Shown: positions 1 to 60,991 of the stretch, piece after piece
Position numbering within the stretch: the first letter of the stretch is position 1
Layout: every line of letters begins with the position of its first letter
Assembly (NCBI GenBank): GCA_018822435.1
Contig: JAHJKD010000050.1
Coordinates: 1,531 to 65,530 of the forward strand
Origin: Patescibacteria group bacterium
Lineage (GTDB): Bacteria; Patescibacteriota; Patescibacteriia; UBA9570; JAHJKD01
Length of the DNA: 64,000 nt
Reading direction: 5' to 3'
Position numbers and translations under genes: made by a program
Notes under the pieces: generated by a model
Told to the model about the DNA's origin: nothing
The model's input: the letters and a program-made list of their open reading frames with translations, nothing else
Databases searched by the model: none

Positions 1-681
1 ACCGGTCATGTCAATCACGACGGCATCTTCTTTAATCATGTTTTCTTTAACAGAATTCTGTTCATTCATTGTTGTGACCAAAATATCGGCTTGCCTGGTC
101 ACTTTAGGGTCCAACTTATATAACACTGTAACTCGACCGCCCATGCTAATAAATAACTGGCCTAAAGGACGGCTTAAAAACGGATTGTCGCCTAAAATTA
201 CCACTTCTTTATTTTTTACAGACACGCCCGTCATCTCCATCAGCCTTAAAGCCGCTTGTGAAGTTGAAGGAATAACGCGCGGCTCGCCCAAACTCATCCA
301 GCCTAAATTCTCCGGGTGAAAACCTTCCACGTCTTTCTCTGGATCAATAAAATCAATGATTCGATTTTGGTCCATGTCATCAGGCACAGGCAACTGTAAT
401 AAAATTCCATGCACACGCTTATCTTCATTTAATTTATCAATCAGCTTTAAAACTTCAGCTTGTTCGACATAGTCTTCAAGACCAAAAGTTTCCACTTTAA
501 TTCCAATTTCCTGAGCCTTATGAAAAAACTTCTGATAACCTTCTGATTCCAAATCCAAACCAACCATAATTACGGCCAAAAGCGGCTTAACCCGAAATTT
601 ATCAATTTTTTCCTTAAGCTCAGCAAAAAGCTCTTCGGCCAGGCCTTCACCTGTTAATATTTTAGTAACGTTCTCAGGCAT
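1..681 (-). CDS. folD: Bifunctional methylenetetrahydrofolate dehydrogenase/cyclohydrolase FolD, partial (C-terminal part runs off the window start)
   Basis: Absent from the supplied ORF track because it is open at the window edge. My translation of the minus strand from the ATG at 681-679 gives MPENVTKILTGEGLAEELF...KRVHGILLQLPVPDDMD...EGFHPENLG...DAVVIDMTG, which fits the FolD layout. The ATG overlaps the glyA stop (ATGCCTGA). Confidence 0.85.
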   Translation of the reverse strand, partial: MPENVTKILTGEGLAEELFAELKEKIDKFRVKPLLAVIMVGLDLESEGYQKFFHKAQEIGIKVETFGLEDYVEQAEVLKLIDKLNEDKRVHGILLQLPVPDDMDQNRIIDFIDPEKDVEGFHPENLGWMSLGEPRVIPSTSQAALRLMEMTGVSVKNKEVVILGDNPFLSRPLGQLFISMGGRVTVLYKLDPKVTRQADILVTTMNEQNSVKENMIKEDAVVIDMTG

Positions 682-1972
682 AGGTTATATCAGGATATAA
701 TTTAAATTCTTCTGTTAATTCTGATACTGTCTTCCTAGTATTTTCCTGGGCGTCAGTATTATCCAGATCTTTTAAGACAGCGGCAATGGCAACACCCACT
801 TTTTTCATTTCGCCTTCTTTCATTCCTCTTGAAGTCAGGGCTGGAGTGCCTAGTCTGATACCAGATGGATTAAACGGCGTACGCGTATCAAATGGGATCA
901 TGTTGAAGTTAGTGTAAATTCCCAGGTCTGCTAATTTATTAGCGCCTTCCTTGCCCGTGATATTCAGATCAGTACAATCGATCAACATCAAATGCGTGTC
1001 CGTGCCGCCAGAAACCAATCTCAAACCTTGATTCATAAGCTCATCTGCCAGGGCCTTGGCATTTTTCACGATCTGCCTCTGATATTCTTTATATTCGTCT
1101 GTCATGGCTTCCTTAAAGGCCACGGCTTTAGCGGCAATGACATGTTCTAATGGTCCGCCTTGCATGCCTGGGAATACAGAAAAGTCGATCATGCCCGCTA
1201 AATCTTTTTTAGAATCCGGATGATAAAGATCGTGATATCTGTCTTCTTTTTTGCACATTATAATTGCCGATCTCGGTCCGCGCAGAGTTTTAGTAGTCGT
1301 TGTCATGACGACATCATGGCTGGCCACCGGATTTTCATGGGCGCCCGCAATACATAAACCGGAAATATGAGAAATATCGGCAAAAGCATAAGCATCGATT
1401 TCTTTGGCAATGGCCGCAAACTTTTCAAATTCTACTTTTCGAGGATACGCTGTGGTTCCACAAAGCACGATCTTTGGCCGCTCCTTTAAAGCCAACTGCC
1501 TTACTTCTTCCATGTCCACTTTTTCATCCTTTTTAGAAACACCGTATGGGATGAATTCATATCTTTTTCCGGAAAAATTTACTGGTGAACCATGAGTAAG
1601 ATGACCGCCATGAGCCAGATTCATCCCTAATACCTTGTCTCCTGTATTAATTAAAGCGCCATAAACTTCCATGTTGGCAGAAGAACCAGAATGAGGCTGG
1701 ACATTAGCATGTTCGGCTCCAAAAAGCTCTTTCGCTCTTTCTATGGCCAAATTTTCAATCATATCTATATATTTTGCACCAGTATAGTATCTCTTGCCCG
1801 GATAACCTTCCGCGTATTTATTGGTACAAACCGTTCCCGTGGCTTCCATTACTGCCGGAGAAGCAAAATTTTCCGAAGGAATCATAACTAATCCTTCTCT
1901 TTGCCGGTTTAATTCTTTGTCTAACAGCTCCGCTATTTCTGGATCTTGCTTGCGAATGTTTTCAATGCTCAT
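674..1972 (-). CDS. glyA: Serine hydroxymethyltransferase
   Basis: 432-aa ORF with SHMT motifs NKYAEGYPGKRYYTG and TTTTKTLRGPR (PLP-lysine region). A TTGAGA-N17-TAAAAT promoter lies just upstream at about 2005-2035. Confidence 0.97.
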   Translation of the reverse strand: MSIENIRKQDPEIAELLDKELNRQREGLVMIPSENFASPAVMEATGTVCTNKYAEGYPGKRYYTGAKYIDMIENLAIERAKELFGAEHANVQPHSGSSANMEVYGALINTGDKVLGMNLAHGGHLTHGSPVNFSGKRYEFIPYGVSKKDEKVDMEEVRQLALKERPKIVLCGTTAYPRKVEFEKFAAIAKEIDAYAFADISHISGLCIAGAHENPVASHDVVMTTTTKTLRGPRSAIIMCKKEDRYHDLYHPDSKKDLAGMIDFSVFPGMQGGPLEHVIAAKAVAFKEAMTDEYKEYQRQIVKNAKALADELMNQGLRLVSGGTDTHLMLIDCTDLNITGKEGANKLADLGIYTNFNMIPFDTRTPFNPSGIRLGTPALTSRGMKEGEMKKVGVAIAAVLKDLDNTDAQENTRKTVSELTEEFKLYPDITYA

Positions 1973-2053
1973 TTATTTATGATAATTAATATTATTAGAT
2001 TTATATTTTACCATTCCGCTGATAATTTCTCAAGATATTATCAATGGGATGGG

Positions 2054-2086
2054 GGAGTTCGGAAAAGGAGGGGGAAACCGAACTCC
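2054..2086 (-). terminator. GC-rich hairpin downstream of the aminotransferase-like gene
   Basis: Perfect 9-bp inverted repeat GGAGTTCGG...CCGAACTCC with a 15-nt loop, about 30 nt past the stop codon. No clean U-tract follows. Confidence 0.4.
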
Positions 2087-2116
2087 GGGTGGGAAAAGGA
2101 AGGAAGGCGCCGCACA

Positions 2117-3265
2117 TCAGATCTCCGACGGATCCGGGACATCCGTATGCCACTCCGCGGGAATCTCGAATCCAGGCAGGAGCCGTTCGACCGTAGGCAT
2201 GTCCCGCCGGACCATGGCCCAGTAGGACTCGGCTGCTTTCGCCAGGAGGGGATGGGGCTCGCCGCGCCGTGCGAACGGGGCATCGATGGGCTTGGGATTG
2301 AGGCTGCGTTCCAGCCATTCGAGGTAGGCGTCGCCCTCGCCGTCATGGAAGACTCCCAGAGGCGGGTTCTCGTTGGTGGCTCGCATCACGGCCTGTACGG
2401 GCACGAAGCCGGACCAGGATCCAGAGACCGAAAATCCCTCGGCCTCGACCAGTTCGTGGCGGCTGACAGGCTTCTCTGCCACCGTGACACCCATGTGCTC
2501 GAAGATCTTGATCATGGTGGCCCGCGTCAGCCCGGGCAGGCACCACGAGTGCAGGTCAGGCGTGACCACGGTGTTCTCGTCCTGGAAGACGAAGAACAGG
2601 TTGGATCCGGTCGTCTCAGCCAGATCGTCTCCTTCGTGCGTCATGCCCAGGACTTCGTTGCAGCCGTACCACTTGGCCACCACGCCCTTGAACTTGGCGC
2701 CCAGGGGGTAGTTGGCCGCCGACTTGATGTGCGGGTAGCCGTTGTAGGGGCTGGCCCGCCGGAACAAACGTCCCGGGAAAAGCAAGTTGATGCCGAATTC
2801 GCCCTCAGGCAGTTTGAGGTACTCAGTCAGATCACGCGTGATGATCTGCCAGTCGGCCGTGCCCGTGGCGTGCACCCCGAGCTCTTCGCCCCAGGCCCCG
2901 CCGAAGATGCGGAGGTACACGTCCTGGGCCTGAGTCAGCTCAGCTGCGTTCAAAGAGGCAATCTTGACCATGGCCGTCAGAACTTGCTCGGCCGTAGGAA
3001 TCGTCTCCCGCGGCAAGCCCAGGGCCATCATATTCCGAACCAGTCGCCGAGCGTGGTCCGGACCGCGGAAGATGCGCCGCTTGCCGTCCGCGCACATCCA
3101 GGCTCCGGCCCCGCCGAAGATGCGTGTGCCGTAGTGGCCGTCGTGCCGGTACGGGCTGTGCCCGATCCCGCCGGTCTCGCGAATCTCGCCCTGGACGATC
3201 ATGTGGGTGTGATGGTAGGAACCATCCGCACCCTCGAAACTGTAAACCAAAGGCTTGACGCCCAT
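2117..3265 (-). CDS. Class IV (BCAT/DAAT-fold) aminotransferase-like protein; GC-rich island gene
   Basis: 382-aa ORF. The segments HDGHYGTRIFGG, HIKSAANYPLG and TGSNLFFV...TPDL...LPGLTRATMIKIFEHMGVTVAEKPVSRHEL...SGSWSGFVPV align in my reading with IlvE-type HALHYGTSVFEG, AAKAGGNY and GENLFEV...PGITRD...E. SD-like GGAAGGA lies about 10 nt upstream. The fully overlapping plus-strand ORF 1946..3289 is treated as a GC shadow. Confidence 0.75.
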   Translation of the reverse strand: MGVKPLVYSFEGADGSYHHTHMIVQGEIRETGGIGHSPYRHDGHYGTRIFGGAGAWMCADGKRRIFRGPDHARRLVRNMMALGLPRETIPTAEQVLTAMVKIASLNAAELTQAQDVYLRIFGGAWGEELGVHATGTADWQIITRDLTEYLKLPEGEFGINLLFPGRLFRRASPYNGYPHIKSAANYPLGAKFKGVVAKWYGCNEVLGMTHEGDDLAETTGSNLFFVFQDENTVVTPDLHSWCLPGLTRATMIKIFEHMGVTVAEKPVSRHELVEAEGFSVSGSWSGFVPVQAVMRATNENPPLGVFHDGEGDAYLEWLERSLNPKPIDAPFARRGEPHPLLAKAAESYWAMVRRDMPTVERLLPGFEIPAEWHTDVPDPSEI

Positions 3266-3405
3266 TTTCTTTTCCTTCCGTTAATGTGAGTTGTCAATTA
3301 ACTTTCTTATAATAAAACAGACCCCTCCTTTTTAGAACTCCTTTTTGGTCTGTATTAGCTTGTTTAAATTACTGGAAATACTAAAAAAAATCAAGCTTAA
3401 GTGAT

Positions 3406-3434
3406 TTGACATAAGCCAGGTAAAATAATAAGCT
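3406..3434 (+). promoter_or_regulatory. Sigma70-like promoter for 3475..4332
   Basis: TTGACA (3406-3411), 17-nt spacer, TAAGCT (3429-3434). Confidence 0.45.
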
Positions 3435-3474
3435 TTGGCCACCTTGACAACCTACCAAAAGGAGGGGGAAACCC

Positions 3475-4332
3475 ATGAAACTCACGACCGCACTGGTCAT
3501 CGCGTCCGCCATCACCTTCACTCCGTTTTGCTTCGCACAGATGGATGAAGGGCCCGAACCCGGGGCTGTCCGGTCACCGGGCGAGCCTGTCGACATGTGC
3601 CGCAGCCTTTATGGCTGGGTGCCCTGTTCCGAGGATATGGAGATCACTCATGTCTGTTTCGACCGGTCTTCCAGCTTCAACTGCCTTGACTGCACCATCA
3701 CCATGGCCCTGCTCGGCGTTCTCGATTCCGACCCGCAGAGCATGATCAACACGACCGCCGGCTGCCTCATGAACAACTTCACCCCGGAAGCCTGGGCCGA
3801 ACTCGAACACTGGGAGAAAGACTACACCAGCTCCCTGGGCCCGGCCTTGGCTGGCAAGGACATCGCCGACCTGCTCCAGAACAGTGTTTACATGGCCCGG
3901 TTTGCTTCCTACAATCTCATCTGCAAAGACAAGACCGAGGTGATCCCAGAATCCTTGACCGAGTACGTCACTTTCTGGCGAGAATCCTCCTGGGATGATC
4001 GCGCCCCCTTGCCGGTCATGATCGCCGAAGCTGCTTTTGAAGAGCATCTTGAAGCTCAAGCCTACCTCTTCTCCTTCAACTGCCTCGCCTTTTACCCGCG
4101 CACGCGTGGCAGCCCGCCCATCTACTTCACCCCGGAAGAAGACAGCGAAGCCGAACTTGGAGCCGCCTTGGTTGCTTTCCTTGCCCATCAAAAAATCACG
4201 GCCATCGCCGTGATCAAGGACTCGCCGGAGCAAGCTGCTCTAGAAGCCAAGGACTGGAAGGTCTGTCCTTCTGCCGCCACTGACAACTTCAACGTCGTCA
4301 TCCCCCCACCGATCGTCTACCACTTCCTCTGA
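3475..4332 (+). CDS. Secreted hypothetical protein; GC-rich island gene
   Basis: 285-aa ORF with signal-peptide-like N-terminus MKLTTALVIASAITFTPFCFAQ. Strong SD AAAAGGAGGGGGAAACC ends 1 nt before the ATG. GC-ending codons throughout. No family recognised. Confidence 0.7.
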   Translation: MKLTTALVIASAITFTPFCFAQMDEGPEPGAVRSPGEPVDMCRSLYGWVPCSEDMEITHVCFDRSSSFNCLDCTITMALLGVLDSDPQSMINTTAGCLMNNFTPEAWAELEHWEKDYTSSLGPALAGKDIADLLQNSVYMARFASYNLICKDKTEVIPESLTEYVTFWRESSWDDRAPLPVMIAEAAFEEHLEAQAYLFSFNCLAFYPRTRGSPPIYFTPEEDSEAELGAALVAFLAHQKITAIAVIKDSPEQAALEAKDWKVCPSAATDNFNVVIPPPIVYHFL

Positions 4333-4353
4333 TGCCGTCAAGGCACCTCATCG

Positions 4354-4386
4354 CCTCGGCAGTCTGCTACCCGCATTCTGCCGAGG
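4354..4386 (+). terminator. GC-rich hairpin after 3475..4332
   Basis: CCTCGGCAG (4354-4362) pairs with CTGCCGAGG (4378-4386), 22 nt after the stop. Confidence 0.45.
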
Positions 4387-4457
4387 CCGCCCACTTCTTG
4401 ACTTTTAAACAAAAATATGATAAAATTATTATAATAAAAAATCATTAATATAATTTT

Positions 4458-5030
4458 ATGCCTTCAAGAGAACCAAGTTTTGATTCACAACCAAAAACAA
4501 CAATCGAACAAAAACTCGAACAAAGAACTGACATTCTTGATGATCAAGCATTAACAGAAAAATACAAAGGTGGAATCCAAGTAGATTCATATCCAGTAAA
4601 ATCATCAGCTGACGGCCAATGCATGGCCCAGGAAACCAATCTCCGACTCCCAACTGAATAAACTCGAAGCACTTCAAGCAGAGACACTGTCACGCTACCA
4701 TTAGAAAGTAAAAATTTTTATAAAAATGAAGCAGACCCTAATGCCTCAGATCAATTAGCGTATCACTTTAAGGATAAATACGCTGATGTAAATGGAAAGG
4801 TCGTCCGCGTTGCCCGGCTTATAGGAACTGATAAAGGAGAAAAGTTCTTAATGACATTAGACTATGACATGGAAGGCAATGAAACAACAAAAACAATCAT
4901 GGATGCAAACGGAAATATTCTTAGTACAATGGATCGCCGACAAATAGAAAAACCCGGTAAAAATCTGCCGAACATGGAATTAAAATTTGATATTAAAGAC
5001 GGCGAAGAACAGGTTACCCTAAACTGGTAA
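4458..5030 (+). pseudogene. Hypothetical protein reading frame interrupted by one in-frame TAA (4659-4661)
   Basis: The track lists only 4458..4661 (67 aa). My translation shows the same frame stays open after the TAA to a stop at 5028-5030: ...TRSTSSRDTVTLPLESKNFYKNEADPNASDQLAYHFKDKYADVNGKVVRVARLIGTDKGEKFLMTLDYDMEG...EEQVTLNW. The total of 573 nt is an exact multiple of 3. Confidence 0.5.
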
Positions 5031-5603
5031 TTTTTTATAAGTCATCTTTTTAAGATCTTGCCACCAATCCGTGCTATTGGTGGTTTTTATTTTCTCAATC
5101 ATTTCTTTGGCAGAATCAGTCTCCACGGCTTCAGCTATTTTCACCACCCAGTCATTCATAGATTCATAGCCTTGCTCGGCAAATTCTTTCGCGGTCATGG
5201 CCATTTCCACCCAGTCGGCGTCCTTAGCAACTACTCCCTCTTTTTTGTCCCTGGAATTAAATTCTTTAAAATATTCCAATAATTTTTTCTCAATCTCTTT
5301 AGGCAAATTTTGTACTTGTTCTTCATAAGCTTTCTGCTCTGGTTCAGAATGATCCCAATATCTCGCCCCGACTTTATGCTGGTCGCCCACCCGGCACTCG
5401 CCAATATCATGAAATAAAACCATGCAAGCCGTTTTCTCCTCATCCGCCCCTTCCAGGCCGGCCATGACATAAGCGATGATCGCCGCCCGGCAGGTATGGT
5501 CGGCCAGTGAGTCAGGATCTTTCACGCCCGCCAAAATCGAGCCAGTATGCCTCTGCCTTTTCAATACGCCCATCTCATAAAAAAAATTAACGATTTTTTC
5601 CAT
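5019..5603 (-). CDS. HD-domain phosphohydrolase (YfbR-like 5'-deoxynucleotidase family)
   Basis: 194-aa ORF with ...LADHTCRAA...LFHDIGECRVGD... (H...HD...D metal-binding pattern). Confidence 0.8.
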   Translation of the reverse strand: MEKIVNFFYEMGVLKRQRHTGSILAGVKDPDSLADHTCRAAIIAYVMAGLEGADEEKTACMVLFHDIGECRVGDQHKVGARYWDHSEPEQKAYEEQVQNLPKEIEKKLLEYFKEFNSRDKKEGVVAKDADWVEMAMTAKEFAEQGYESMNDWVVKIAEAVETDSAKEMIEKIKTTNSTDWWQDLKKMTYKKLPV

Positions 5604-5973
5604 ATATCTCTCTTGGTTTATCTTGTTCTAAAAAATCTCCTAAATCTCGCTGCAAAACGTCAAAACTAAGAGTGTCTCGAAACATGAATTCTCCATTTTC
5701 TTTTTTTGCTTCCCATACCATTACCGCAAAATTCTTTAAATCTTCTTGCAATCCCTTGATAATTTTCTTGGAAGGATTCGGACCACAAGTCGAACGATCC
5801 AAAGCAAAACCATGATCAATCTGACCTCCGACATCCCATATTTCTCGACTTCCCTCGTAAGGTTCATCAGCATCAATATATTCATATAAAAAACGAAAGG
5901 CATCATTTAAGGCCTTCAAGTCATCTAAGTGGCTTATGAGGCTTAAAAATGTTGTAAACTCTTTTTCAGTCAT
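5587..5973 (-). CDS. Hypothetical protein
   Basis: 128-aa ORF. Its start overlaps the Elp3 stop (ATGA) and its end overlaps the HD gene start, so the three genes look like one operon. No family recognised. Confidence 0.6.
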   Translation of the reverse strand: MTEKEFTTFLSLISHLDDLKALNDAFRFLYEYIDADEPYEGSREIWDVGGQIDHGFALDRSTCGPNPSKKIIKGLQEDLKNFAVMVWEAKKENGEFMFRDTLSFDVLQRDLGDFLEQDKPREIYGKNR

Positions 5974-7508
5974 ATATTTTTTACCATATAATTATCCTCT
6001 AAATTATAACCCAATTTTCGATAATAGTCCCTTACACCTACTCCGGAGATAACCCAAAGATTGTCATGGCCAGCTTTCTTAGTCAGAGCTTCTGCTTCAG
6101 CCAATAATTTCTTGCCGAAACCAAAATGCTGGACTGCCTTTTCGCCTTTTGCCAGCTCCAGCATCTGCCCATAAGTATGAAGCTCACGAATAAAAGCTTT
6201 TTCTCCCAATCTCAATCGACAAAAAGCAAATAAATATTTTTCATCAGAAGATTCATAAGTTAAAAATATTTCTTTACCGCCTGAAGCCACATAGCCTCTT
6301 TTTACTAACTTGGCCTCACTCAAATCTACTTTAGCCTCACGCGGCTCTCTACATCTGATGCATTTGCACTCAACTCCCCCATCTTGAAGTAATTGCCTCA
6401 AATTAGACACAGTGCTTCCCGCCACGATCGACTCCTGGGGAATATCGCGAATTAATCTCGCAATCCTGACATACTCAGGCATCTCTTTCTTTACCTTTTT
6501 AAGCAATCCTACCAATTCTTCAGTAGTATATGGCTTATACTTTCCCTCTTTATACCATTTATATAATTCCGATCCTTTCGTGACTACGCACGGATAAATT
6601 TTAATCTGGTCTGGCTTAAAATCCGGATTTGTAAATAACTCCCGGAACATCTTATGGTCCTTATCCAAATCAGAGCCCGGCAGATTCGGCATCATATGAT
6701 AAGTTATTTTAAATCCGGCATCTTTTAATAATTTAGTCGCTTGAATAGTTTGCTCTACTCTATGCCCTCTCTGGTTTAGGTCTAAAATATCATCATAGAC
6801 AGTTTGCACGCCCAGCTCGACCCGAGTCGCCCCAAAATCTAACATACGCTGCACTTCTTTTTCATCTACATAATCCGGCCTGGTCTCCAGAGTTAGCCCC
6901 ACCACTCTATGTTCTGCTGTCTCATTTAGTTTCTTAGCCTCTTCCAAATCTTTAGATTCTTTTTTATTATAACCATCATAACAACGCTTAATAAAATCCT
7001 CCTGATATTCCGGCGGCAAGCAAGACCATGTTCCGCCCATCACAATCAACTCACACTTATCTGTCGGATGACCATTGTCATACAAAGCCCGCAGTCTCAT
7101 TTCCACTTGCTTATAGGGATCAAACTCACATAAAACTGCCCGCATCACCGCTGGCTCATTAGAAAGATAAGATTTAGGCATGTCTTTTTCCGTAGGGCAA
7201 TAAACACATTTTCCCGGGCAAGGATGTTCGCGAGTTAAAACAGAAATCACTGCCACACCCGATAAAGTTCGGACATCTCTTTTTCGAAGCATTCTAAAAA
7301 GCTGTTCGTCTTCTTTTATCTCCCCTTTTTTTACTAGAGATCTATATGCCTTAAGAATTTCCGCATTTGTCGCCATGCCTGTGCCATCTTTCTTGGCAAT
7401 CTCTCCTTTTATACGTCGAAGCTGGATCACGTTCTTGGGCTTTTCTTTTATGGCTAATTTTACCAATTCTTCTAGGGCTTTTTTCATAGGGTTATTATAT
7501 ATGAACAT
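5970..7508 (-). CDS. elp3: Elp3-family radical SAM / GNAT acetyltransferase (tRNA U34 cm5-type modification enzyme homolog)
   Basis: 512-aa ORF. Radical-SAM cluster motif CPGKCVYCP, then a TIM-barrel-like region and a C-terminal GNAT motif QHFGFGKKLLAEAE. This is the Elp3 architecture. Confidence 0.85.
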   Translation of the reverse strand: MFIYNNPMKKALEELVKLAIKEKPKNVIQLRRIKGEIAKKDGTGMATNAEILKAYRSLVKKGEIKEDEQLFRMLRKRDVRTLSGVAVISVLTREHPCPGKCVYCPTEKDMPKSYLSNEPAVMRAVLCEFDPYKQVEMRLRALYDNGHPTDKCELIVMGGTWSCLPPEYQEDFIKRCYDGYNKKESKDLEEAKKLNETAEHRVVGLTLETRPDYVDEKEVQRMLDFGATRVELGVQTVYDDILDLNQRGHRVEQTIQATKLLKDAGFKITYHMMPNLPGSDLDKDHKMFRELFTNPDFKPDQIKIYPCVVTKGSELYKWYKEGKYKPYTTEELVGLLKKVKKEMPEYVRIARLIRDIPQESIVAGSTVSNLRQLLQDGGVECKCIRCREPREAKVDLSEAKLVKRGYVASGGKEIFLTYESSDEKYLFAFCRLRLGEKAFIRELHTYGQMLELAKGEKAVQHFGFGKKLLAEAEALTKKAGHDNLWVISGVGVRDYYRKLGYNLEDNYMVKNI

Positions 7509-7535
7509 CGAATTTTAGACGAACTCGAATTAGTT
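7509..7535. repeat. Left arm of the 27-bp inverted repeat flanking the GxxExxY gene
   Basis: CGAATTTTAGACGAACTCGAATTAGTT. The reverse complement of 8356-8382 is CGAATTTGGGACGAACTCGAATTAGTT, giving 25/27 identity with an 18-bp perfect core. Confidence 0.85.
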
Positions 7536-8324
7536 CCTAATAAAATTCCAATTTAATCTTGTCCTATTGAAGTTTGCAATTAATCCTAGCTTAATATTAA
7601 AATATTTCAAGTTTTTCTTCATTTTTTCAATTTCAATTTCTGATATTTCTTTCACTGCTAAAACTCTAACTAATATTTTATTTTCAATAAAAAATAATTT
7701 TACATCGCTTTCCCCAAGGATTTCTCCCTTAAAAGACATGGATTTTTTCTTTTTATACAAAAAGGGAATGCCATTATTTCTTAATTCTATCCATAAGGCC
7801 CTTCTATATACATAATGAAAAAATCCTGGCCCTAAAATTGAATGAACTATTAATAAACAATCAAGAACATCTTTCGATAATCCTGGATAAAGCAAATCAG
7901 GTTTAATAGTTATTTCATTTTTTGGTTTAAAATTTTTATTTTTTAATTTTAAATTATTTATAACTCTCTCATACTGTGCCTTTTCTGATCCAAAATTCAT
8001 TAATATTCCTAAGGAGTAATCAGTAACTTTCAAATAAGAAATTAATTGGGCGATATTAATAGGATGAATTTCATCTCGCGCCTTCAATTCTAAAATTATT
8101 TTATCTTGCACAACAATATCAGGACGACAAAATCCTATTTTATGTCCTTTATAAAGCATGTCTAAAGGTTTCTCTAAAACAAAATTAATTTTCTTTTTGT
8201 TTAAACCAATCGCCATTGCTTTCTGATATATTTCCTCTTTATGTCCTGGGCCAATTTTATTATAAACATCATAATAGACACCTTGTACTAAATAAGATAA
8301 TTCCGGAAAAATAATTTCAGTCAT
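7530..8324 (-). CDS. Tandem GxxExxY-domain protein (PD-(D/E)XK nuclease-like superfamily)
   Basis: 264-aa ORF made of two homologous halves. The first half carries GHKEEIY (GxxExxY). The second half is degenerate (GFFHYVY). Confidence 0.75.
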   Translation of the reverse strand: MTEIIFPELSYLVQGVYYDVYNKIGPGHKEEIYQKAMAIGLNKKKINFVLEKPLDMLYKGHKIGFCRPDIVVQDKIILELKARDEIHPINIAQLISYLKVTDYSLGILMNFGSEKAQYERVINNLKLKNKNFKPKNEITIKPDLLYPGLSKDVLDCLLIVHSILGPGFFHYVYRRALWIELRNNGIPFLYKKKKSMSFKGEILGESDVKLFFIENKILVRVLAVKEISEIEIEKMKKNLKYFNIKLGLIANFNRTRLNWNFIRN

Positions 8325-16596: not shown

Positions 16597-16619
16597 ACCG
16601 TCTATCAAGCAGACTTTTT
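16597..16619 (+). terminator. Conserved hairpin family, degenerate copy 0
   Basis: ACCGTCTATCAAGCAGACT plus a T-run. It keeps the CTATCAAGC loop region of the family. Confidence 0.45.
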
Positions 16620-16690
16620 CCTTGACTATATCTCAATAAAAAGCTAAAAATACCCCACCACCCGTACCACCACCAAGGAGGAAAAAATCC

Positions 16691-16948
16691 ATGAAAGCGA
16701 GAATCATCGACCCTGGCACAAATTCTTTGGTCCTCTGGCTCATAGTCGAGGTGAATGAAGGCGAAATCGCCATCAAGCCCAGTAAAGGGGGGATCGAAGT
16801 AGCTGTGTTCGTCTCCGGCTGGTTTCCGGACACAATCATCGGGGAGACTGAGGTGCCGGAAGATTTGGTCGAGAAGGCAGTCGCCCATCTCCGGACCAAG
16901 CACGAGCTCGACCAGCTGGCCAACCAGCTCAAGGAGATCCTGCGCTGA
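16691..16948 (+). CDS. Hypothetical 85-aa protein; GC-rich island gene
   Basis: SD AAGGAGG lies 9 nt upstream. TTGACT-N17-TAAAAA(T) promoter at 16622-16651. GC-ending codons. Followed by an imperfect GC hairpin (about 16950-17000) and family hairpin copy 1. Confidence 0.6.
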   Translation: MKARIIDPGTNSLVLWLIVEVNEGEIAIKPSKGGIEVAVFVSGWFPDTIIGETEVPEDLVEKAVAHLRTKHELDQLANQLKEILR

Positions 16949-17026
16949 GTGGAGGGGGCGGGCGGCGGCTCATCAAAAAGCTGCCGTCCTCCCTCCAATC
17001 TAGTAACAATCACTTCATATAAAAAC

Positions 17027-17053
17027 GGCCCGCCTATCAAGCGAATTTTTTTT
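17027..17053 (+). terminator. Conserved hairpin family, copy 1 (right arm degenerate)
   Basis: GGCCCGCCTATCAAGCGAA followed by T8. Confidence 0.5.
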
Positions 17054-20639: not shown

Positions 20640-20643
20640 AAAC

Positions 20644-20670
20644 GATCCGCCTATCAAGCGGGTCTTTTTT
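20644..20670 (+). terminator. Conserved hairpin family, copy 6
   Basis: GATCCGCCTATCAAGCGGGTC followed by T6. Confidence 0.7.
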
Positions 20671-20757: not shown

Positions 20758-21156
20758 CTAGGCCACTTCGTCGAAGTAGTCCCAGCGCGCCTCATCGATC
20801 TCCTCCACGACCGCCTCGCACATCATGTAGATCATGACGTCGCGCAGCGTGATGTGAGCGGAATGGTCGACGTTGCACTCGAAACCGCAGTAGCACTCAC
20901 AGCAAGATTCCTCGCGGACACCGACGATGCCTCTAGCGGTCTGATCCAGATCCAGCCCATCCAGCATCATGTCCTCGGTGTAGCGGAACAGGACGGCGTC
21001 GGTCATATCCGACGCGCGACCGTAAGCCGCCCGCCAGGTCGAGTCCGTCTCCTTCCACCAGTGATCCGGGCCGAAATGGTCCATGATCCGGCGAGCGAGC
21101 CGCTCGATCAGGTAGGAGGAATCATGCCGGTTACCCTTTTGTTGTACGTTCATCAC
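20758..21156 (-). CDS. Hypothetical acidic 131/132-aa protein; GC-rich island gene
   Basis: SD AAGGAG lies 7 nt upstream of the ATG at 21153 (a GTG at 21156 is also possible). GC-ending codons and a Cys-rich patch CCECYCGFEC. No family recognised. The plus ORF 20695..21264 is a shadow. Confidence 0.6.
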   Translation of the reverse strand: MMNVQQKGNRHDSSYLIERLARRIMDHFGPDHWWKETDSTWRAAYGRASDMTDAVLFRYTEDMMLDGLDLDQTARGIVGVREESCCECYCGFECNVDHSAHITLRDVMIYMMCEAVVEEIDEARWDYFDEVA

Positions 21157-37554: not shown

Positions 37555-37668
37555 GAGTGTATTATATAAAACGAACTAGAATTTGAAAAGAAGGAGGGGG
37601 AGGATTTCGGGAGGGGGAGGAGGATCCGAGGGGTTATGCCGAAGCAAAACCACACGGACCTCCTTCCC

Positions 37669-37998
37669 CTATGGGAGAACAAATCGGAACAAACAAGTGT
37701 CCCCAGCCACGACCACCTTGCGGGGGTCATAACCGTCTGCCCATGAGATCCCCCGAAGGGTTTCCCACAAAAAAATATCGTCTCCCAACGTACATGCTTT
37801 CAGCATGATCATGTAGTAGGACTGTCCCACGTACACGATTTTGCCTTCTGCACGCACGCCCCCCACCAACGCTACTGTCTCCTCCGAAGGGACATCCTCC
37901 GAATACTCGAAGACCAGAACGAGCGTATCGTCCGTAGTCCTCATAGCGTCGACATTTTGGGGGGTGGAGCATTCTCCCGAAGGCTGCGTGGCCAACAT
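37669..37998 (-). CDS. Hypothetical 109-aa protein; GC-rich island gene
   Basis: SD AAGGAGG lies 7 nt upstream of the ATG. GC-ending codons. Overlapping ORFs on both strands are shadows. No family recognised. Confidence 0.6.
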   Translation of the reverse strand: MLATQPSGECSTPQNVDAMRTTDDTLVLVFEYSEDVPSEETVALVGGVRAEGKIVYVGQSYYMIMLKACTLGDDIFLWETLRGISWADGYDPRKVVVAGDTCLFRFVLP

Positions 37999-38529: not shown

Positions 38530-39789
38530 ATGCCTAATTTAGAAACCAGAATGGGCTCAAAGCCCGCCACACAAGAAGGTGCTAAACAAGACAGAAAAAT
38601 AAAAGGTGTAAGAGCAGAACAGCCTACTCAGGCTGATGCTGATGCATTGCAGGCTGCTTTTCCTGATAAAAAAATCAAGCAAGCCATTGCCGCTCAAGAT
38701 GCTGACCAAATTGCGGCTGTAAAAAAGAAAATGGGTGTTGATCCTAGTGTTGCGCAAAAGCGCCCTGGCGAAACAACTGGTGAATACAAAACCAGACTAT
38801 CCCGATACAATCTGGAAGAAAATTATGGCGCCCCGAAAAAACCTGTTTCTGCCGCTGCTATGAAACCTGGCGAAGTAATGGTGGCCCGCAAAGATCCAGG
38901 CCAGCCTGTCCAGCCTGTTGAGGAAGTTAAATCCAAACTAGACGACTTAATGAGTGAATACGTAAACCTTCGCACCAAGATGAAAAAACTTGAAGGCAAA
39001 GGCTTTGCTTTCTTTAAAAAAGCTCGCCTTAACCGCCTCAAACAAATGGAAGGAAATCTAAATACCCAAGTTGCCGAACTGACTCCGATTGAAAATAGAA
39101 AAGATGCTCGTGCGCTTTATGACAGAATGGACATCAATTTAGGTGACCGCATGACTGCCAATGCCCGCGCGGAAGTAGAAAAACAAAATGCCTCTTATAT
39201 GGAAGCAATTGGTCCGGCTTTAGAAGCCCGGCGTGTAGCTGAAGCGGAAAAAAGCCTTGGCGAAGCAGCTGCAGCCAGAGAAGAGGAAATGGCGGCTTAT
39301 CGTCCCATTACTGACGTTGAGGAAAATATTACTGAAAAACAGCCAGATGTAACTGAACAATTAGAATTAATTGAAGAAAAACCTGATGTAAGTGAAGATC
39401 TTGAATTAGTTGATGAAACAAAACCGACAAGAAAAGATATGGAAGGAGCAATTCAAGCCAGAAAAATTTTAGTTGAAGATATGGGTGAAATTGAGGCTGG
39501 CGACGACGAACCAACTGATGAAGAAATTGCTGCTCAAATGGAAGAAATTAATCTACAATTAGCCGAAGAAGAAAAAGCTGCCAGAATGGCAAAATATCCT
39601 AAGGCTATTAAGCTAAAAGAGGGTACTCAGCCTGAACCATATGCGGGGGGCCCGACTCTAACGGAAAGCTCCGCTCCAAAATCTGCCACGCAAGTGCCAG
39701 AAAAGGATCTGCCTGAATTAAAACTTGATGATGAAGTTGAAGAAATCGAACTGGATGAAGATGATAAAGACCAGGCTGCGTCAGCTTAA
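38530..39789 (+). CDS. Hypothetical charged/acidic protein (419 aa)
   Basis: Long ORF in AT-rich context sharing its N-terminal module with 38215..38511. No family recognised. Confidence 0.65.
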   Translation: MPNLETRMGSKPATQEGAKQDRKIKGVRAEQPTQADADALQAAFPDKKIKQAIAAQDADQIAAVKKKMGVDPSVAQKRPGETTGEYKTRLSRYNLEENYGAPKKPVSAAAMKPGEVMVARKDPGQPVQPVEEVKSKLDDLMSEYVNLRTKMKKLEGKGFAFFKKARLNRLKQMEGNLNTQVAELTPIENRKDARALYDRMDINLGDRMTANARAEVEKQNASYMEAIGPALEARRVAEAEKSLGEAAAAREEEMAAYRPITDVEENITEKQPDVTEQLELIEEKPDVSEDLELVDETKPTRKDMEGAIQARKILVEDMGEIEAGDDEPTDEEIAAQMEEINLQLAEEEKAARMAKYPKAIKLKEGTQPEPYAGGPTLTESSAPKSATQVPEKDLPELKLDDEVEEIELDEDDKDQAASA

Positions 39790-47637: not shown

Positions 47638-47736
47638 ATGTCTCATTCACGAGCCGGGCCAACAGACTCGCCAGCGGAGGCCTCAAGCCAAGAATCCCTG
47701 GTGAGTCTCCGTAAAATTATTACATTTTTAAAATAA
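47638..47736 (+). CDS. Candidate 32-aa peptide at the 3' end of a GC-rich segment
   Basis: AAAGGAGGAGG SD precedes the ATG at 47638. Translation is MSHSRAGPTDSPAEASSQESLVSLRKIITFLK, with the stop just before hairpin ACCCGA-ATATCA-TCGGGT plus a T-run. The competing minus-strand ORFs 47465..47686 and 47434..47646 lack any SD. Confidence 0.25.
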   Translation: MSHSRAGPTDSPAEASSQESLVSLRKIITFLK

Positions 47737-52591: not shown

Positions 52592-52888
52592 TCAGAGCCT
52601 CTCGATGATCCCGCCGGGTCCATGGGGGCCGTAGCCGTGGCCGTCCAATGACCCGATCAAGGCCCGCAGCCTGTCCGCCTTCGCGACTTTGCTGCGGACA
52701 ATGCTCATGATCCCTTCCCAGACGGCCTGGCGCTCGTCGTCTTCCAGAGCCATGAAAACTTCATAACTGCGGGCAGTGAAGCTTTCATCCGCCATCAGGG
52801 AAACCGGATCATCAGAACTGGAATCAATTGACTCACACACCTGCTCGAAAAAACTCGCCAAAATCTCACGATTATCAGATTTAGCCAA
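52592..52888 (-). CDS. Hypothetical acidic 98-aa protein; GC-rich island gene
   Basis: TTG start with SD AAGGAGG 8 nt upstream. GC-ending codons. No family recognised. Confidence 0.55.
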   Translation of the reverse strand: MAKSDNREILASFFEQVCESIDSSSDDPVSLMADESFTARSYEVFMALEDDERQAVWEGIMSIVRSKVAKADRLRALIGSLDGHGYGPHGPGGIIERL

Positions 52889-60670: not shown

Positions 60671-60991
60671 ATGAAAATCATCTACGACCAAAATCCGCCC
60701 ATCAACATGCGCAACCTGCTCATGAAAATCGGTTATCACGAACATTATGACTATAAAATGAAAAGGTCTTCTTTTGTTTCTCCCCTTAGCTCTGGTTATT
60801 ACCCCCGCTTTCATATTTATACAAAGGATAAACACGACGGCTCCATAGAGCTTGATCTTCATCTTGATCAAAAAAAGGCCTCATACAAAGGTACGAAGGC
60901 CCATATGGGCGAGTCTGACTCTTCTAATGTTTTAGAAGAAGGCGCCCGCATCCAGCGCTGGCTGGATTACGCCCGCATCCAGCGCCGTTAA
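60671..60991 (+). CDS. Hypothetical protein (106 aa)
   Basis: ORF in AT-rich context. No family recognised. Confidence 0.5.
   Translation: MKIIYDQNPPINMRNLLMKIGYHEHYDYKMKRSSFVSPLSSGYYPRFHIYTKDKHDGSIELDLHLDQKKASYKGTKAHMGESDSSNVLEEGARIQRWLDYARIQRR

What the first reader, a model, noticed from the sequence alone, without database searches (positions are those of the whole stretch)
2040..4395. Largest GC island: divergent aminotransferase-like and secreted-protein genes around an AT-rich spacer, with a duplicated 17-mer
Two GC-rich genes diverge from a 210-bp spacer (about 3266-3474) whose composition looks like the backbone. The genes are the class IV aminotransferase-like 2117-3265 on the minus strand and the signal-peptide protein 3475-4332 on the plus strand.

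A single imported block from a GC-rich donor would be expected to carry a donor-like intergenic region, so this layout is odd.

The 17-mer AAAAGGAGGGGGAAACC occurs twice in the same orientation:
- Once as the SD of 3475-4332 (3457-3473).
- Once as the loop of the hairpin at the far end of the aminotransferase gene (2063-2079).

The aminotransferase unit is therefore bracketed by a direct repeat. An 11-mer core AAGGAGGGGGA recurs at 37591-37601 at the edge of another island. The spacer also holds a 7-bp stem (3317-3323 / 3347-3353) enclosing two CCTCC-type anti-SD-like words.
Basis: partly seen in the sequence, partly recalled or inferred. Interest (0 to 1): 0.6.

Follow-up and report, generated by a model that had tools for sequence, protein, structure and literature searches.

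The report
Two accessory gene modules upstream of SHMT
The GC-rich island is two separately gained or lost accessory genes sitting in a variable slot next to a housekeeping gene of an ultra-small (Patescibacteria) bacterium, and the repeated 17-mer is one gene's ribosome-binding site plus the loop of a conserved hairpin at the end of the other gene, not a recombination scar.

Summary
The island, the AT-rich spacer and the exact 17-mer at 2063-2079 and 3457-3473 are all there.

**The direct repeat does not mark a junction.**
- A related contig (L008) joins window 2050 directly to 3356. The aminotransferase (AT) module is therefore a discrete 1,305-bp block (2051-3355) with no target duplication.
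- Copy 2 of the 17-mer is the native ribosome-binding site (RBS) of the secreted-protein gene. It is kept in two relatives that lack the AT.
- Copy 1 is the 15-nt loop of a hairpin inside the module.

**The spacer is composite.** 3266-3355 is the module's own leader. 3356-3474 is native intergenic DNA with promoter-like sites.

**A second lineage (L260) carries the same kind of module.**
- It has a 36%-identical, equally GC-rich AT in the same slot upstream of SHMT.
- Its 5' and 3' hairpins are homologous, with compensatory stem changes.
- Its two ends are again inverted complements.
- The hairpins are therefore conserved parts of the module.

**AT protein.** It is a fold-type-IV, BCAT-like PLP enzyme of a rare subfamily.

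**Unexplained.**
- These genes stay GC3-rich (0.8-0.9) in three AT-rich genomes.
- The same 15-nt loop recurs in hairpins of unrelated bacteria and phages.

Function of the hairpins through SD/anti-SD pairing is inferred, not shown.

The parts
2004..2050 (-). 47-nt block upstream of SHMT. It holds candidate promoter P1 (-35 TTGAGA 2033-2028, TG-extended -10 TAAAAT 2010-2005) and the palindrome TGATAAT(2020-2026)-N10-ATTATCA(2037-2043). It abuts the left junction of the AT module.
   Evidence: 100% identical to L008 1475-1521, although SHMT itself is only 77% nt identical. Promoter-like site found. Hairpin/palindrome seen (I3).
2051..3355 (-). AT module: a 1,305-bp block that is present here and absent in L008. 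The boundary is ambiguous by 1 nt (T). There is no target-site duplication.
   Evidence: BLAST of L008: 2-1521 = window 530-2050 and 1521-2526 = window 3356-4386. Alignment.
2054..2086 (-). 3' hairpin of the AT module. Stem 2054-2062/2078-2086. The 15-nt loop 2063-2077 reads UUUCCCCCUCCUUUU on the AT-sense strand. 17-mer copy 1 = 2063-2079. No U-run follows it.
   Evidence: Fold and hairpin scan. The homologous hairpin in L260 (5240-5268) has 2 compensatory pairs out of 9.
2117..3265 (-). Fold-type-IV (class IV) PLP aminotransferase-like gene, 382 aa, BCAT-like fold with a C-terminal extension of about 85 aa. GC 64%, GC3 0.81.
   Evidence: Pfam PF01063, 71 bits. Below all NCBIfam equivalog cut-offs. 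K181, E217 and R74 invariant in the subfamily alignment. AF2 pLDDT 82. Foldseek TM about 0.83 to BCATs. GC3.
3266..3316 (-). AT-rich leader of the AT gene, with a weak SD (GGAAGGA) and a TTGACAAC word.
   Evidence: Sequence. The L260 leader has the same order of elements.
3317..3353 (-). 5' hairpin of the AT module. Stem ACAGACC/GGUCUGU. The 23-nt loop has two SD-like words, and UUUUAUUAU follows the stem. 3322-3341 is the inverted complement (18/20) of 2054-2073.
   Evidence: I1; 0 of 2000 shuffles reach the score. The L260 counterpart is at about 3877-3915.
3356..3474 (.). Native intergenic DNA, orthologous to L008 1521-1641. Candidate minus-strand promoter P2: -35 TTGATT 3394-3389, 17 nt, -10 TAATTT 3371-3366, pointing into the AT module. 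Candidate plus-strand promoter of the secreted gene: TTGACA 3406-3411, 17 nt, TAAGCT 3429-3434.
   Evidence: Hexamers and the 17-nt spacing are conserved in L008 (both promoters) and L090 (secreted-gene promoter). This was read. The promoters are inferred, not mapped.
3457..3473 (+). 17-mer copy 2: the native SD/RBS of the secreted-protein gene.
   Evidence: Exact in L090, and TAAAGGAGGGGGAAATC in L008. Both lack the AT gene.
3475..4332 (+). Cys-rich protein gene, 285 aa, with an N-terminal hydrophobic stretch that looks like a signal peptide (by eye). No known domain. GC 58%, GC3 0.74.
   Evidence: dN/dS 0.10 against the L008 ortholog. About 50%-identical homolog in L090 with conserved Cys pattern.
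4353..4387 (+). GC-rich hairpin ending the secreted-gene module (arms 4353-4367/4373-4387).
   Evidence: I13. Also present in L008.

Best explanation
The island is two independent accessory modules stacked in a variable slot between an ELP3-like radical-SAM gene and the SHMT-FolD genes of a Patescibacteria (CPR) genome.

**Module 1: the secreted-protein gene.** It encodes a Cys-rich protein and runs from a native AT-rich promoter and a very strong RBS, which is 17-mer copy 2.

**Module 2: the AT module (2051-3355).**
- It is a 1,305-bp block carrying a BCAT-like fold-type-IV PLP enzyme gene.
- It is bounded by two hairpins whose sequences are inverted complements of each other.
- It lies exactly between a native minus-strand promoter (P2) and the SHMT promoter block (P1), in the same orientation as SHMT.
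- It is therefore probably read from P2.
- Its 3' hairpin has no U-run, so it is probably co-transcribed with SHMT-FolD.

**The 17-mer repeat.** It is not a recombination scar. Copy 1 is the loop of the module's conserved 3' hairpin. On the transcribed strand this loop is an anti-SD word (UUUCCCCCUCCUUUU).

**Shown.**
- The block boundaries.
- The native status of copy 2.
- Homology and compensatory change of the hairpins in a second lineage.
- Inverted complementarity of the two ends in both lineages.
- The fold and catalytic residues of the enzyme.

**Inferred.**
- The promoters and co-transcription.
- That the hairpins act at the RNA level. The 3' loop plus right arm would pair with the SD-like 5' leader, as in 5'/3'-UTR interactions.
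- That in this lineage the loop may also pair with the neighbour's RBS.
- That alleles of both modules are swapped among related Patescibacteria by recombination in the conserved flanks.
For: **Empty site.** L008 joins 2050 to 3356.

**Copy 2 is native.** It is conserved as the RBS in L090 and L008, which have no AT.

**Same slot in a second lineage.**
- L260/L261 (SHMT 90% aa identical) has the order kinase-AT-SHMT-FolD. Its AT gene is 65% GC in a backbone of about 38%.
- The intergenic DNA upstream of its 5' hairpin is homologous to the window/L008 intergenic region.

**Homologous flanks.**
- 5' side: a hairpin with two SD-like words, then GUUUUAU(U/A)AUA, then TTGACAAC.
- 3' side: hairpin GAGGTTCG-[TTTATCTCCTTTT]-CGAACCTC against GGAGTTCGG-[TTTCCCCCTCCTTTT]-CCGAACTCC. 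Two of 9 pairs are compensatory, and pairing collapses when the partner is slid.

**End-to-end inverted complementarity.** Window: score 30, reached by 0 of 2000 shuffles. L260: p = 0.008.

**Independent histories of the two modules on the SHMT tree.**
- AT is present in the window and L260, and absent in L090 and L008.
- The secreted gene is present in the window, L090 and L008, and absent in L260.
- The secreted gene is incongruent with SHMT: 88% identity to the L008 copy but about 50% to the L090 copy, and dS 0.55 where SHMT is saturated.

**Enzyme.**

**Context from a paper.** Horizontal transfer into Patescibacteria, mostly from other Patescibacteria, is documented (PMC12455944).
Against: - The direction of the event (insertion in the window lineage or deletion in L008) is not resolved. 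Only one clean empty site exists.
- The promoters are consensus-like sites only. P2 was found by eye, not by the scan.
- The 5' hairpin followed by a U-run could be a terminator/insulator or could overlap a -10 box. In that case it would not be part of the AT mRNA.
- In L260 the 5' element that matches the 3' hairpin is shifted by one SD-like word relative to the window. The pairing is therefore conserved in kind, not column by column.
- Covariation rests on two sequences. The shuffle control is not significant (123/500).
- A third GC-rich AT homolog (L262) has no such end complementarity.
- No transcript data exist.
Confidence: 0.7

Rival explanations
1. First reader's model. The AT unit was inserted by a recombination or transposition event that duplicated, or used, the 17-mer. 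The direct repeat would then mark the junctions, as a target-site duplication or att-like core.
For: An exact 17-nt direct repeat brackets the AT gene, with 0.02 expected by chance.
Against: - The empty site in L008 places the junctions at 2050|2051 and 3355|3356, not at the repeats.
- The 101 nt between the right junction and copy 2 are native and contiguous with the SHMT promoter block in L008.
- L090 has the exact 17-mer as RBS without any AT.
- Excision between the repeats would leave GGGGGAGTTCGG upstream of the RBS. This is seen in no relative.
Confidence: 0.03
2. The AT module is a mobile cassette. It would be a passenger gene bounded by terminal inverted repeats or hairpins, moved by a recombinase acting in trans. 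Candidate types are MIC/MITE-like, IS200/IS605-PATE-like, integron-cassette-like or invertible. It would have been inserted site-specifically upstream of SHMT.
For: - The block boundaries fall 3 nt and 2 nt outside the feet of the two hairpins.
- An 18/20 inverted repeat lies near both ends, and is conserved in kind in L260.
- There is no target duplication, and the module apparently has no promoter of its own.
- The same slot is occupied in two lineages by very different alleles (36% identity).
- A faint Y1-transposase-like gene lies near the slot in L103.
Against: - No recombinase is adjacent in the window or in L260.
- There is a single copy in 64 kb. The end motif gave 0 hits in 2.9 million viral contigs.
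- The inverted-repeat arms are 3 and 14 nt inside the ends, not terminal.
- The two hairpin stems are unrelated to each other, unlike IS200/IS605 ends.
- The 3' hairpin is 33 nt and perfect, unlike attC sites.
- The intergenic DNA upstream of the module is homologous in L260 and the window. That fits inheritance or homologous replacement of a locus rather than repeated transposition.
Confidence: 0.12
3. Trans-antisense control. The anti-SD loop in the AT mRNA 3' region pairs with the RBS of the divergently transcribed secreted-protein mRNA. The match is 17 nt and perfect, and it is presented in a hairpin loop. Pairing would repress translation of the secreted protein when the AT-SHMT transcript is abundant.
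For: - The predicted duplex is -32.3 kcal/mol. The next-best of 80 translation-initiation regions in the window is -17.6, and the median is -4.65.
- The loop is single-stranded in the predicted fold.
- The window's loop matches the neighbour's RBS at the positions where it differs from the L260 loop.
- Anti-SD motifs in 3' UTRs that pair with SD regions are a known mechanism (icaR, PMC3868564; hbs, PMC5737220; titles and abstracts seen).
Against: - The pairing cannot be tested by covariation. No other genome has both genes: L260 lacks the secreted gene, and L090 and L008 lack the AT.
- Other loci with the identical loop show no comparably matched RBS nearby. Their best duplexes are -9 to -17 kcal/mol.
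- The same 16-17-mer is used as an RBS and as a hairpin loop in unrelated genomes, so identity by convergence is possible.
Confidence: 0.2
4. The identity of the two 17-mers has no functional or historical link. Both would be independent instances of a recurrent strong-SD word, one as an RBS and one as a hairpin loop.
For: - The exact 17-mer is found in more than 120 metagenome contigs and 9 viral contigs in unrelated contexts.
- The 16-mer is the RBS of a whole phage family.
- The identical 15-nt loop sits in 11-13-bp-stem hairpins of at least 4 unrelated contigs.
- The L260 loop already shares AAAAGGAG...AAA, so only about 5-6 further positions need to coincide.
Against: - About 5-6 extra matching positions is still roughly 1e-3 to 2e-4 by chance (my estimate).
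- The two copies are 1.4 kb apart on mRNAs from the same intergenic region.
Confidence: 0.45
5. One block recently imported from a GC-rich donor outside the CPR. The AT-rich spacer would be a later insertion or would have drifted toward the host's composition (amelioration).
For: GC3 is 0.74-0.81 against 0.38 in the backbone, with strong SDs in an SD-poor genome.
Against: - The two genes have different presence/absence patterns.
- The named members of the rare AT subfamily come from Patescibacteria MAGs.
- Every GC-rich copy seen (window, L260, L262) sits in an AT-rich backbone.
- No closer homolog was found among 1.8 billion representative proteins, nor in plasmids or phages.
Confidence: 0.05

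Closest known systems
Accessory-gene islets in integration hot spots between conserved core genes, as in bacterial pangenome hot spots (my own knowledge). HGT and genomic islands in Patescibacteria are documented in PMC12455944.
   Same: - A variable slot between conserved genes (ELP3-like and SHMT) with different cargo in each lineage.
- Presence/absence polymorphism.
- Deviant composition.
- Allele incongruence with the core-gene tree.
   Different: - No mobility genes.
- Cargo genes are GC-richer than the host, with one shared codon usage pattern across lineages.
- The flanks are more conserved than the cargo.
- No donor was identified.
Branched-chain amino acid aminotransferases (fold-type IV PLP enzymes, e.g. 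PDB 6gkr, 1i1k)
   Same: - The Pfam domain.
- Catalytic Lys in the ...IKSAANY motif.
- The conserved Glu and Arg.
- Overall fold, with TM about 0.83 normalised by target length.
   Different: - 19-23% identity.
- Far below the IlvE/DAAT/PabC equivalog cut-offs.
- A C-terminal extension of about 85 aa with a conserved W..F.P...YW..VR...P..WHT pattern.
- Only 8 representatives at E < 1e-30 among 1.8 billion proteins.
- Substrate unknown.
5'/3'-UTR base pairing through a 3'-UTR anti-SD motif (icaR of S. aureus, PMC3868564; hbs of B. subtilis, PMC5737220)
   Same: - A C-rich anti-SD word in the 3' region of an mRNA.
- It is complementary to a purine-rich SD-type word in the 5' leader of the same gene.
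- This holds in two lineages.
   Different: - The 5' partner is an SD-like word in a far-upstream hairpin, not the functional SD.
- Nothing is known about the transcripts.
- The 3' motif sits in a 15-nt hairpin loop with no terminator tail.
STAB-SD / 5' stabiliser elements of Gram-positive mRNAs (my own knowledge: cryIIIA, phage SP82)
   Same: SD-like polypurine words far upstream of the start codon, next to a 5'-proximal hairpin.
   Different: Not tested here. Presence in the transcript is uncertain.
C-rich hairpin loops of trans-acting sRNAs that bind SD regions (RNAIII, RsaE; my own knowledge, and PMC6158497 by title and abstract)
   Same: A C-rich loop that is perfectly complementary to a target RBS.
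   Different: - It is part of an mRNA 3' region rather than a separate sRNA.
- There is a single perfectly matched target.
- No evidence of processing.
Mobile insertion cassettes / MITEs and integron cassettes (my own knowledge)
   Same: - One passenger gene with no transposase.
- Inverted repeats near both ends.
- Placed downstream of a resident promoter.
   Different: - No target duplication.
- The repeats are not terminal.
- Single copy.
- No attC-type site and no integrase.

Membership tests
Fold-type IV (class IV) PLP-dependent aminotransferase superfamily | Pfam PF01063 domain above the gathering score | tested here: met
   71.2 bits against a cut-off of 28.5
Fold-type IV (class IV) PLP-dependent aminotransferase superfamily | Catalytic Lys, and conserved Glu and Arg of the PLP site | tested here: met
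   K181 aligns with the Lys of ...IKALANY in 6gkr. K181, E217 and R74 are invariant in 11 subfamily members.
Fold-type IV (class IV) PLP-dependent aminotransferase superfamily | Two-domain BCAT/DAAT fold | tested here: met
   AF2 pLDDT 82, pTM 0.84. Foldseek E 1.9e-22 and TM 0.83 (target-normalised) to BCATs.
IlvE / D-amino-acid aminotransferase / PabC (specific enzymes) | Score above the NCBIfam equivalog cut-off | tested here: not met
   The best hit is 99 bits against a cut-off of 279 (PRK06606). DAAT and PabC models give 32-37 bits against 260-320.
Transposon-type insertion with target-site duplication | A direct repeat of target sequence exactly at both junctions | tested here: not met
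   The junctions 2050|2051 and 3355|3356 share at most 1 nt. The 17-mer copies lie 12 nt inside and 101 nt outside the block.
MITE / mobile insertion cassette | Terminal inverted repeats at the very ends, and multiple copies | tested here: not met
   The 18/20 inverted repeat lies 3 and 14 nt from the ends. There is no second copy in the window and there are 0 viral hits.
Integron gene cassette | An attC site (57-141 bp imperfect palindrome with R/L cores), an integrase and an array | tested here: not met
   The hairpin is 33 nt and perfect with no GTTRRRY core. The neighbours are SHMT and the secreted-protein gene. The attC definition is from my own knowledge.
IS200/IS605-type (Y1 HUH) element or PATE | Similar subterminal hairpins at both ends on one strand, and a TnpA gene | tested here: not met
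   The stems GGAGTTCGG and ACAGACC are unrelated. No TnpA is seen in the locus. The absence of a target duplication is compatible with this family.
icaR/hbs-type 5'/3'-UTR interaction | A 3'-UTR anti-SD word complementary to the 5' region of the same mRNA | tested here: met
   Window: 7+11 bp with a 2-nt mismatch, reached by 0 of 2000 shuffles. L260: 5+10 bp, p = 0.008.
icaR/hbs-type 5'/3'-UTR interaction | Both partners on one transcript, and an effect on translation or stability | not testable with these tools
   No transcript data. The promoters are only inferred.
Trans-acting anti-SD RNA | Complementarity to the target RBS kept across lineages | tested here: inconclusive
   The match is perfect (17 nt) in the window. 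No other genome holds both genes. Other loci with the same loop lack a matched RBS.
Rfam families | A match at the gathering score | tested here: not met
   Only two tRNAs in the window. A weak SprD hit (32 bits against 100) spans the junction. Nothing on the other hairpin loci.
Horizontally acquired genomic islet | Deviant composition plus presence/absence among relatives | tested here: met
Horizontally acquired genomic islet | An identifiable donor | tested here: not met
   The closest AT homolog is 40-41% identical, and the named homologs are from Patescibacteria. No plasmid or phage source was found.

The most novel reading that the evidence does not exclude
The AT module and the other GC-rich, SD-led islets may not be fading relics of GC-rich donors. 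They may be a class of genes that stays GC3-rich (0.8-0.9, one shared codon usage pattern) inside AT-rich, SD-poor Patescibacteria genomes, and that is exchanged as hairpin-bounded alleles in fixed slots.

Their 3' hairpin would then belong to an undescribed, widespread structured motif. The motif has a variable stem and a fixed 15-nt loop, AAAAGGAGGGGGAAA / UUUCCCCCUCCUUUU. It is found in unrelated bacteria and phages, almost always between co-directional genes with the pyrimidine loop on the mRNA. It would work by SD/anti-SD pairing, and here it would link the AT-SHMT transcript to translation of the neighbouring secreted protein.
Probability: 0.15. Interest if true: 0.75.

Novelty: new variant of a known kind. 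Interest (0 to 1): 0.45.

Why it matters
- **A general caution.** An apparent 'direct repeat around a gene' can be a regulatory word used twice rather than a recombination scar. The finding gives a clean, testable anatomy: an empty site, two promoters and two hairpins.
- **An accessory-gene slot in reduced genomes.** It documents a slot next to one-carbon metabolism genes in ultra-small Patescibacteria, where gene gain is thought to shape their limited metabolism.
- **If the hairpin complementarity acts at the RNA level.** It would extend 5'/3'-UTR and anti-SD control from Firmicutes to the CPR.
- **If GC3-richness of these modules is maintained in place.** It would challenge the usual reading of GC islands as recent imports.

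Tried and rejected
- **Structure of the secreted protein.** pLDDT 33, unusable. No fold search was run.
- **Domain, defence and structure searches.** Pfam, NCBIfam, PADLOC and PDB-sequence searches of the secreted protein found nothing. Pfam and PADLOC searches of the small GC-rich ORFs also found nothing.
- **Rfam.** No family covers either hairpin. The weak SprD match at 1954-2086 spans the module junction and was rejected.
- **Intrinsic terminator reading of the 3' hairpin.** Rejected for canonical terminators: the loop is 15 nt and no U-run follows on either strand.
- **Small ORF driven by copy 1 on the + strand.** No start codon lies at a usable distance.
- **General enrichment of SD-like words in large hairpin loops.** Not found. 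Apart from the 17-mer sites, 3 of 313 large-loop hairpins in 2.2 Mb have them, about the 1% I estimate for chance. The hairpin association is therefore specific to this word.
- **Search of the end motif GGAGTTCNNAAAAGGAGGGG in viral contigs.** 0 hits.
- **tblastn of both proteins against plasmids and phages.** Only generic BCATs at 25-31% identity, and nothing for the secreted protein.
- **Assembly chimera.** Rejected: four independent assemblies are identical.

Full report
**1. Observation.** The window is 41.4% GC.
- The two largest GC-rich runs are 2001-3300 (61.5%) and 3401-4400 (57.5%). A spacer of about 32-33% GC separates them.
- ORF 2117-3265(-) hits Pfam Aminotran_4. ORF 3475-4332(+) has an N-terminal hydrophobic stretch that looks like a signal peptide (by eye) and no known domain.
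- The 17-mer AAAAGGAGGGGGAAACC occurs exactly twice, at 2063-2079 and 3457-3473, both on the + strand. Chance expectation is 0.02, and no further copy appears at up to 2 mismatches.
- Copy 1 is the 15-nt loop (plus 2 stem bases) of a 9-bp hairpin at 2054-2086.
- The 7-bp stem 3317-3323/3347-3353 and the 11-mer at 37591 are also real.

**2. Source.**
- The locus is 100% identical in two NCBI Patescibacteria MAGs (GCA_018814995.1 contig JAHIYR010000040.1; GCA_018825215.1) and in two independent Logan assemblies. It is not an assembly chimera.
- The backbone is SD-poor. Only 7 of 50 ORFs of at least 100 aa have an SD core.
- AAGGAGG/CCTCCTT occurs 13 times in 64 kb, mostly at the edges of GC-rich islets.

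**3. Empty site.** The only database homolog of the secreted protein (P0002, 86-88% identity) lies on contig L008. There SHMT and the secreted-protein gene are direct divergent neighbours.
- BLAST aligns L008 2-1521 with window 530-2050, and L008 1521-2526 with window 3356-4386.
- The AT gene therefore sits in a discrete 1,305-bp block, 2051-3355, with at most 1 nt (T) shared at the junctions.
- The left flank is a 47-nt stretch (2004-2050) that is 100% identical in L008, although SHMT is only 77% nt identical. It holds a promoter-like site for SHMT (TTGAGA-17-TG-TAAAAT) and the palindrome TGATAAT-N10-ATTATCA.
- Copy 1 of the 17-mer is 12 nt inside the block. Copy 2 is 101 nt outside it.
- The direct repeat is not a target duplication and not the crossover point.

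**4. The spacer is composite.**
- 3356-3474 is native intergenic DNA.
- It carries the secreted gene's candidate promoter (TTGACA 3406-3411, 17 nt, TAAGCT). The hexamers and spacing are kept in L008 and L090.
- It also carries a candidate minus-strand promoter P2 (TTGATT 3394-3389, 17 nt, TAATTT 3371-3366). Both hexamers and the spacing are kept in L008 while the spacer sequence differs. I read this.
- P2 would start transcription about 3357-3360, at the very edge of the AT block.
- 3266-3355 belongs to the block. It is the AT gene's own AT-rich leader and includes the 5' hairpin.

**5. Secreted-protein module.**
- L090 (SHMT 96% aa identical) has the exact 17-mer as RBS. A homolog of only about 50% identity follows, with the same Cys pattern, and there is no AT gene.
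- L008 (SHMT 84%) has an 88%-identical ortholog. This is incongruent with the SHMT tree.
- Against L008 the gene has dN/dS 0.10 and dS 0.55, while SHMT synonymous sites are saturated (pS 0.73).
- The gene is therefore under purifying selection. Its alleles have moved among lineages more recently than the backbone diverged.

**6. AT protein.**
- It is a fold-type-IV PLP enzyme. The evidence is the Pfam domain, alignment to BCATs with the catalytic Lys in ...IKSAANY, invariant K181/E217/R74 in the subfamily, an AF2 model with pLDDT 82, and Foldseek TM about 0.83 to BCATs at 19-23% identity.
- It is far below every NCBIfam equivalog cut-off.
- It belongs to a rare subfamily: 8 representatives at E < 1e-30 among 1.8 billion proteins, the best at 41% identity.
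- The named members come from Patescibacteria MAGs.
- No closer relative exists in the plasmid or phage collections.

**7. A second AT module in the same slot.** L260/L261 is the same lineage as L091, with SHMT 90% identical. Its gene order is PDDEXK - ELP3-like - Ser/Thr kinase - AT - SHMT - FolD - YchF.
- Its AT is only 36% identical to the window's, while backbone proteins are 47-89% identical.
- It is just as GC-rich, 65% in a backbone of about 38%.
- The flanks are built the same way.
  - 5' side: a hairpin whose large loop holds two SD-like words, then GUUUUAU(U/A)AUA, then TTGACAAC, then the start codon.
  - 3' side: hairpin GAGGTTCG-[TTTATCTCCTTTT]-CGAACCTC against GGAGTTCGG-[TTTCCCCCTCCTTTT]-CCGAACTCC.
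- On the alignment, 8-9 pairs are kept and 2 have changed on both sides. Pairing falls from 94% to 61% or less when the partner is slid. With two sequences the shuffle control is not significant.
- In both lineages the 5' leader contains the inverted complement of the 3' hairpin's loop plus right arm. The window has GGAGTTCnnAAAAGGAGGGG, reached by 0 of 2000 shuffles. L260 has GGTTC--GAAAAGGAGA, p = 0.008.
- The intergenic DNA upstream of the 5' hairpin in L260 is homologous to the window/L008 intergenic region (GGCTTxTGTCAAA...CTTGATTT). The two modules therefore occupy the same locus.
- The hairpins, and hence copy 1 of the 17-mer, are conserved components of the module. They are not junction debris.

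**8. Composition puzzle.**
- GC3 is 0.81 (window AT), 0.89 (L260 AT) and 0.92 (L262 AT, a third backbone of about 40% GC). SHMT has 0.34-0.38. Two other subfamily members are not GC-rich: L258 0.28 and L009 0.59.
- Relative codon usage was compared for the AT, the secreted gene, the small GC-rich ORFs of the window, and the L260 and L262 ATs. These correlate with each other at r = 0.58-0.91, and with the backbone at -0.15 to 0.10.
- Every GC-rich copy seen lies in an AT-rich genome, and no GC-rich home genome was found.
- There are two possible readings. Either new GC-rich alleles are repeatedly imported into the same slot by recombination in the conserved flanks, or GC3 is maintained in place. 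I cannot tell which.

**9. History.** SHMT identities are tree-like: ((((window, L090), L260), L008), L092), (L102, L103).
- The AT is present in the window and L260 and absent in L090 and L008.
- Two histories fit equally well:
  - one gain after L008 split off, with loss in L090, whose intergenic region is shorter and spans the site;
  - two separate gains.
- The interval between the ELP3-like gene and SHMT holds different cargo in every lineage.

**10. The 17-mer elsewhere.** None is from this lineage. It has three uses:
- as an RBS, including a whole phage family with AAAAAGGAGGGGGAAACTATG;
- as the left half of ordinary terminators, AAAAGGAGGGG-GAAA-CCCCTCCTTTT;
- as the loop of hairpins with unrelated stems.

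Of 101 distinct contexts, 4 have perfect 11-13-bp stems around the identical 15-nt loop (L220, L178, L189, L172), and several more have 6-7 bp. At random positions, 2 of 2020 reach stems of at least 9 bp.
- Two related phages differ by a compensatory A-T to G-C change in the stem.
- The L178 stem resembles the window's.
- In 4 of the 5 clear cases, counting the window, the hairpin lies between co-directional genes with the pyrimidine loop on the mRNA. L178 is the exception: its hairpin lies between divergent genes.
- No Rfam family matches.
- Large-loop hairpins in general are not enriched for SD words.
- This recurrent motif is unexplained.

**11. How it most likely works.**
- Shown: block boundaries, native RBS, conserved hairpins and end complementarity, enzyme fold.
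- Inferred:
  - The module is read from P2 and, lacking a terminator tail, continues into SHMT-FolD.
  - The 3' hairpin marks or protects the AT 3' end, and its anti-SD loop pairs with the SD-like 5' leader. This resembles the icaR and hbs 5'/3'-UTR interactions (PMC3868564, PMC5737220).
- The loop is also a perfect 17-nt match to the neighbour's RBS (-32.3 kcal/mol against -17.6 for the next best). A trans effect on the secreted protein is therefore possible.
- However, loci elsewhere with the same loop lack such a partner, and no second genome has both genes.
- I give the trans effect 0.2, and coincidence of two strong-SD words 0.45.

**12. Verdict.**
Its recombination-junction reading is not.
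- What is there is a known kind of thing, accessory modules in a hot spot, with unusual and partly unexplained features:
  - co-varying SD/anti-SD hairpins at both ends of a gene;
  - persistently GC3-rich alleles in AT-rich genomes;
  - a recurrent fixed-loop hairpin.

Noticed in passing
whole window, e.g. starts at 60671, 39786-41024(-), 50014: The backbone is SD-poor. Only 7 of 50 ORFs of at least 100 aa have a GGAG/GAGG/AGGA core at -20..-4, and many starts have a TATAAT-like box a few nt upstream, which looks leaderless. Strong SDs are almost confined to the GC-rich islets.
   Followed up: partly
16691-16948(+), 20758-21156(-), 37669-37998(-), 52592-52888(-), 47638-47736(+): Further small GC-rich ORFs led by a strong SD (85-132 aa). 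They have no Pfam or PADLOC hit and share the codon usage pattern of the AT and secreted-protein genes. Relatives have similar islets: L103 3156-3389, L091 5131-5700, L262 4322-4699.
   Followed up: partly
37591-37636: The 3' flank of the 109-aa islet gene has two GGAGGGGG words. It also has a short hairpin, TTCGG-[15-nt purine loop]-CCGAG, that resembles the AT module's 3' hairpin.
   Followed up: no
2004-2050: A 47-nt block is 100% identical to L008 although the adjacent SHMT gene is 77% nt identical. It holds a promoter-like site plus the palindrome TGATAAT-N10-ATTATCA, probably an operator for SHMT-FolD.
   Followed up: partly
window 5019-8324 vs L102, L103, L104, L260: The interval between the ELP3-like radical-SAM gene and SHMT is a variable slot. 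L103 and L104 have nothing there. L102 has two paralogs of about 400 aa. L260 has a kinase plus the AT. The window has a 128-aa gene, an HD-domain gene, two small ORFs, the secreted-protein gene and the AT.
   Followed up: partly
L260 5310-5440, L091 30-140, L009 4395-4440, L102 7259-7295: C-rich/G-rich REP-like hairpins (CCCCTCTCTCC...GGAGAGAGGGG and CCTCTCCC...GGGAGAGG) recur in intergenic DNA of related genomes. In L260 they lie between the AT and SHMT.
   Followed up: no
16598-16625, 17020-17050, 20640-20670: Native intrinsic terminators share the loop word CTATCAAGC between different stems.
   Followed up: no
L109 1570-1586 and 1721-1737: Two copies of the 17-mer lie 151 nt apart, each inside a 15-bp-stem hairpin (GCGTAATCCGCGGTT...AACCGCGGATTACGC). 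This is a repeated structured element in an unrelated metagenome contig.
   Followed up: no
L094 2132-2222 / L095 9128-9220: In two related phages, two adjacent long-stem hairpins upstream of a DNA polymerase gene both have 16-nt loops containing CUCCUUUU on the mRNA strand.
   Followed up: partly
L103 2328-2993: A 221-aa gene with a faint Y1 (IS200-like/RAYT-like) transposase signal lies two genes from the variable slot in a relative.
   Followed up: no
L260 2292-3722 and L262 3048-4214: A Ser/Thr protein kinase gene is the neighbour of the GC-rich AT homolog in two different genomes.
   Followed up: no
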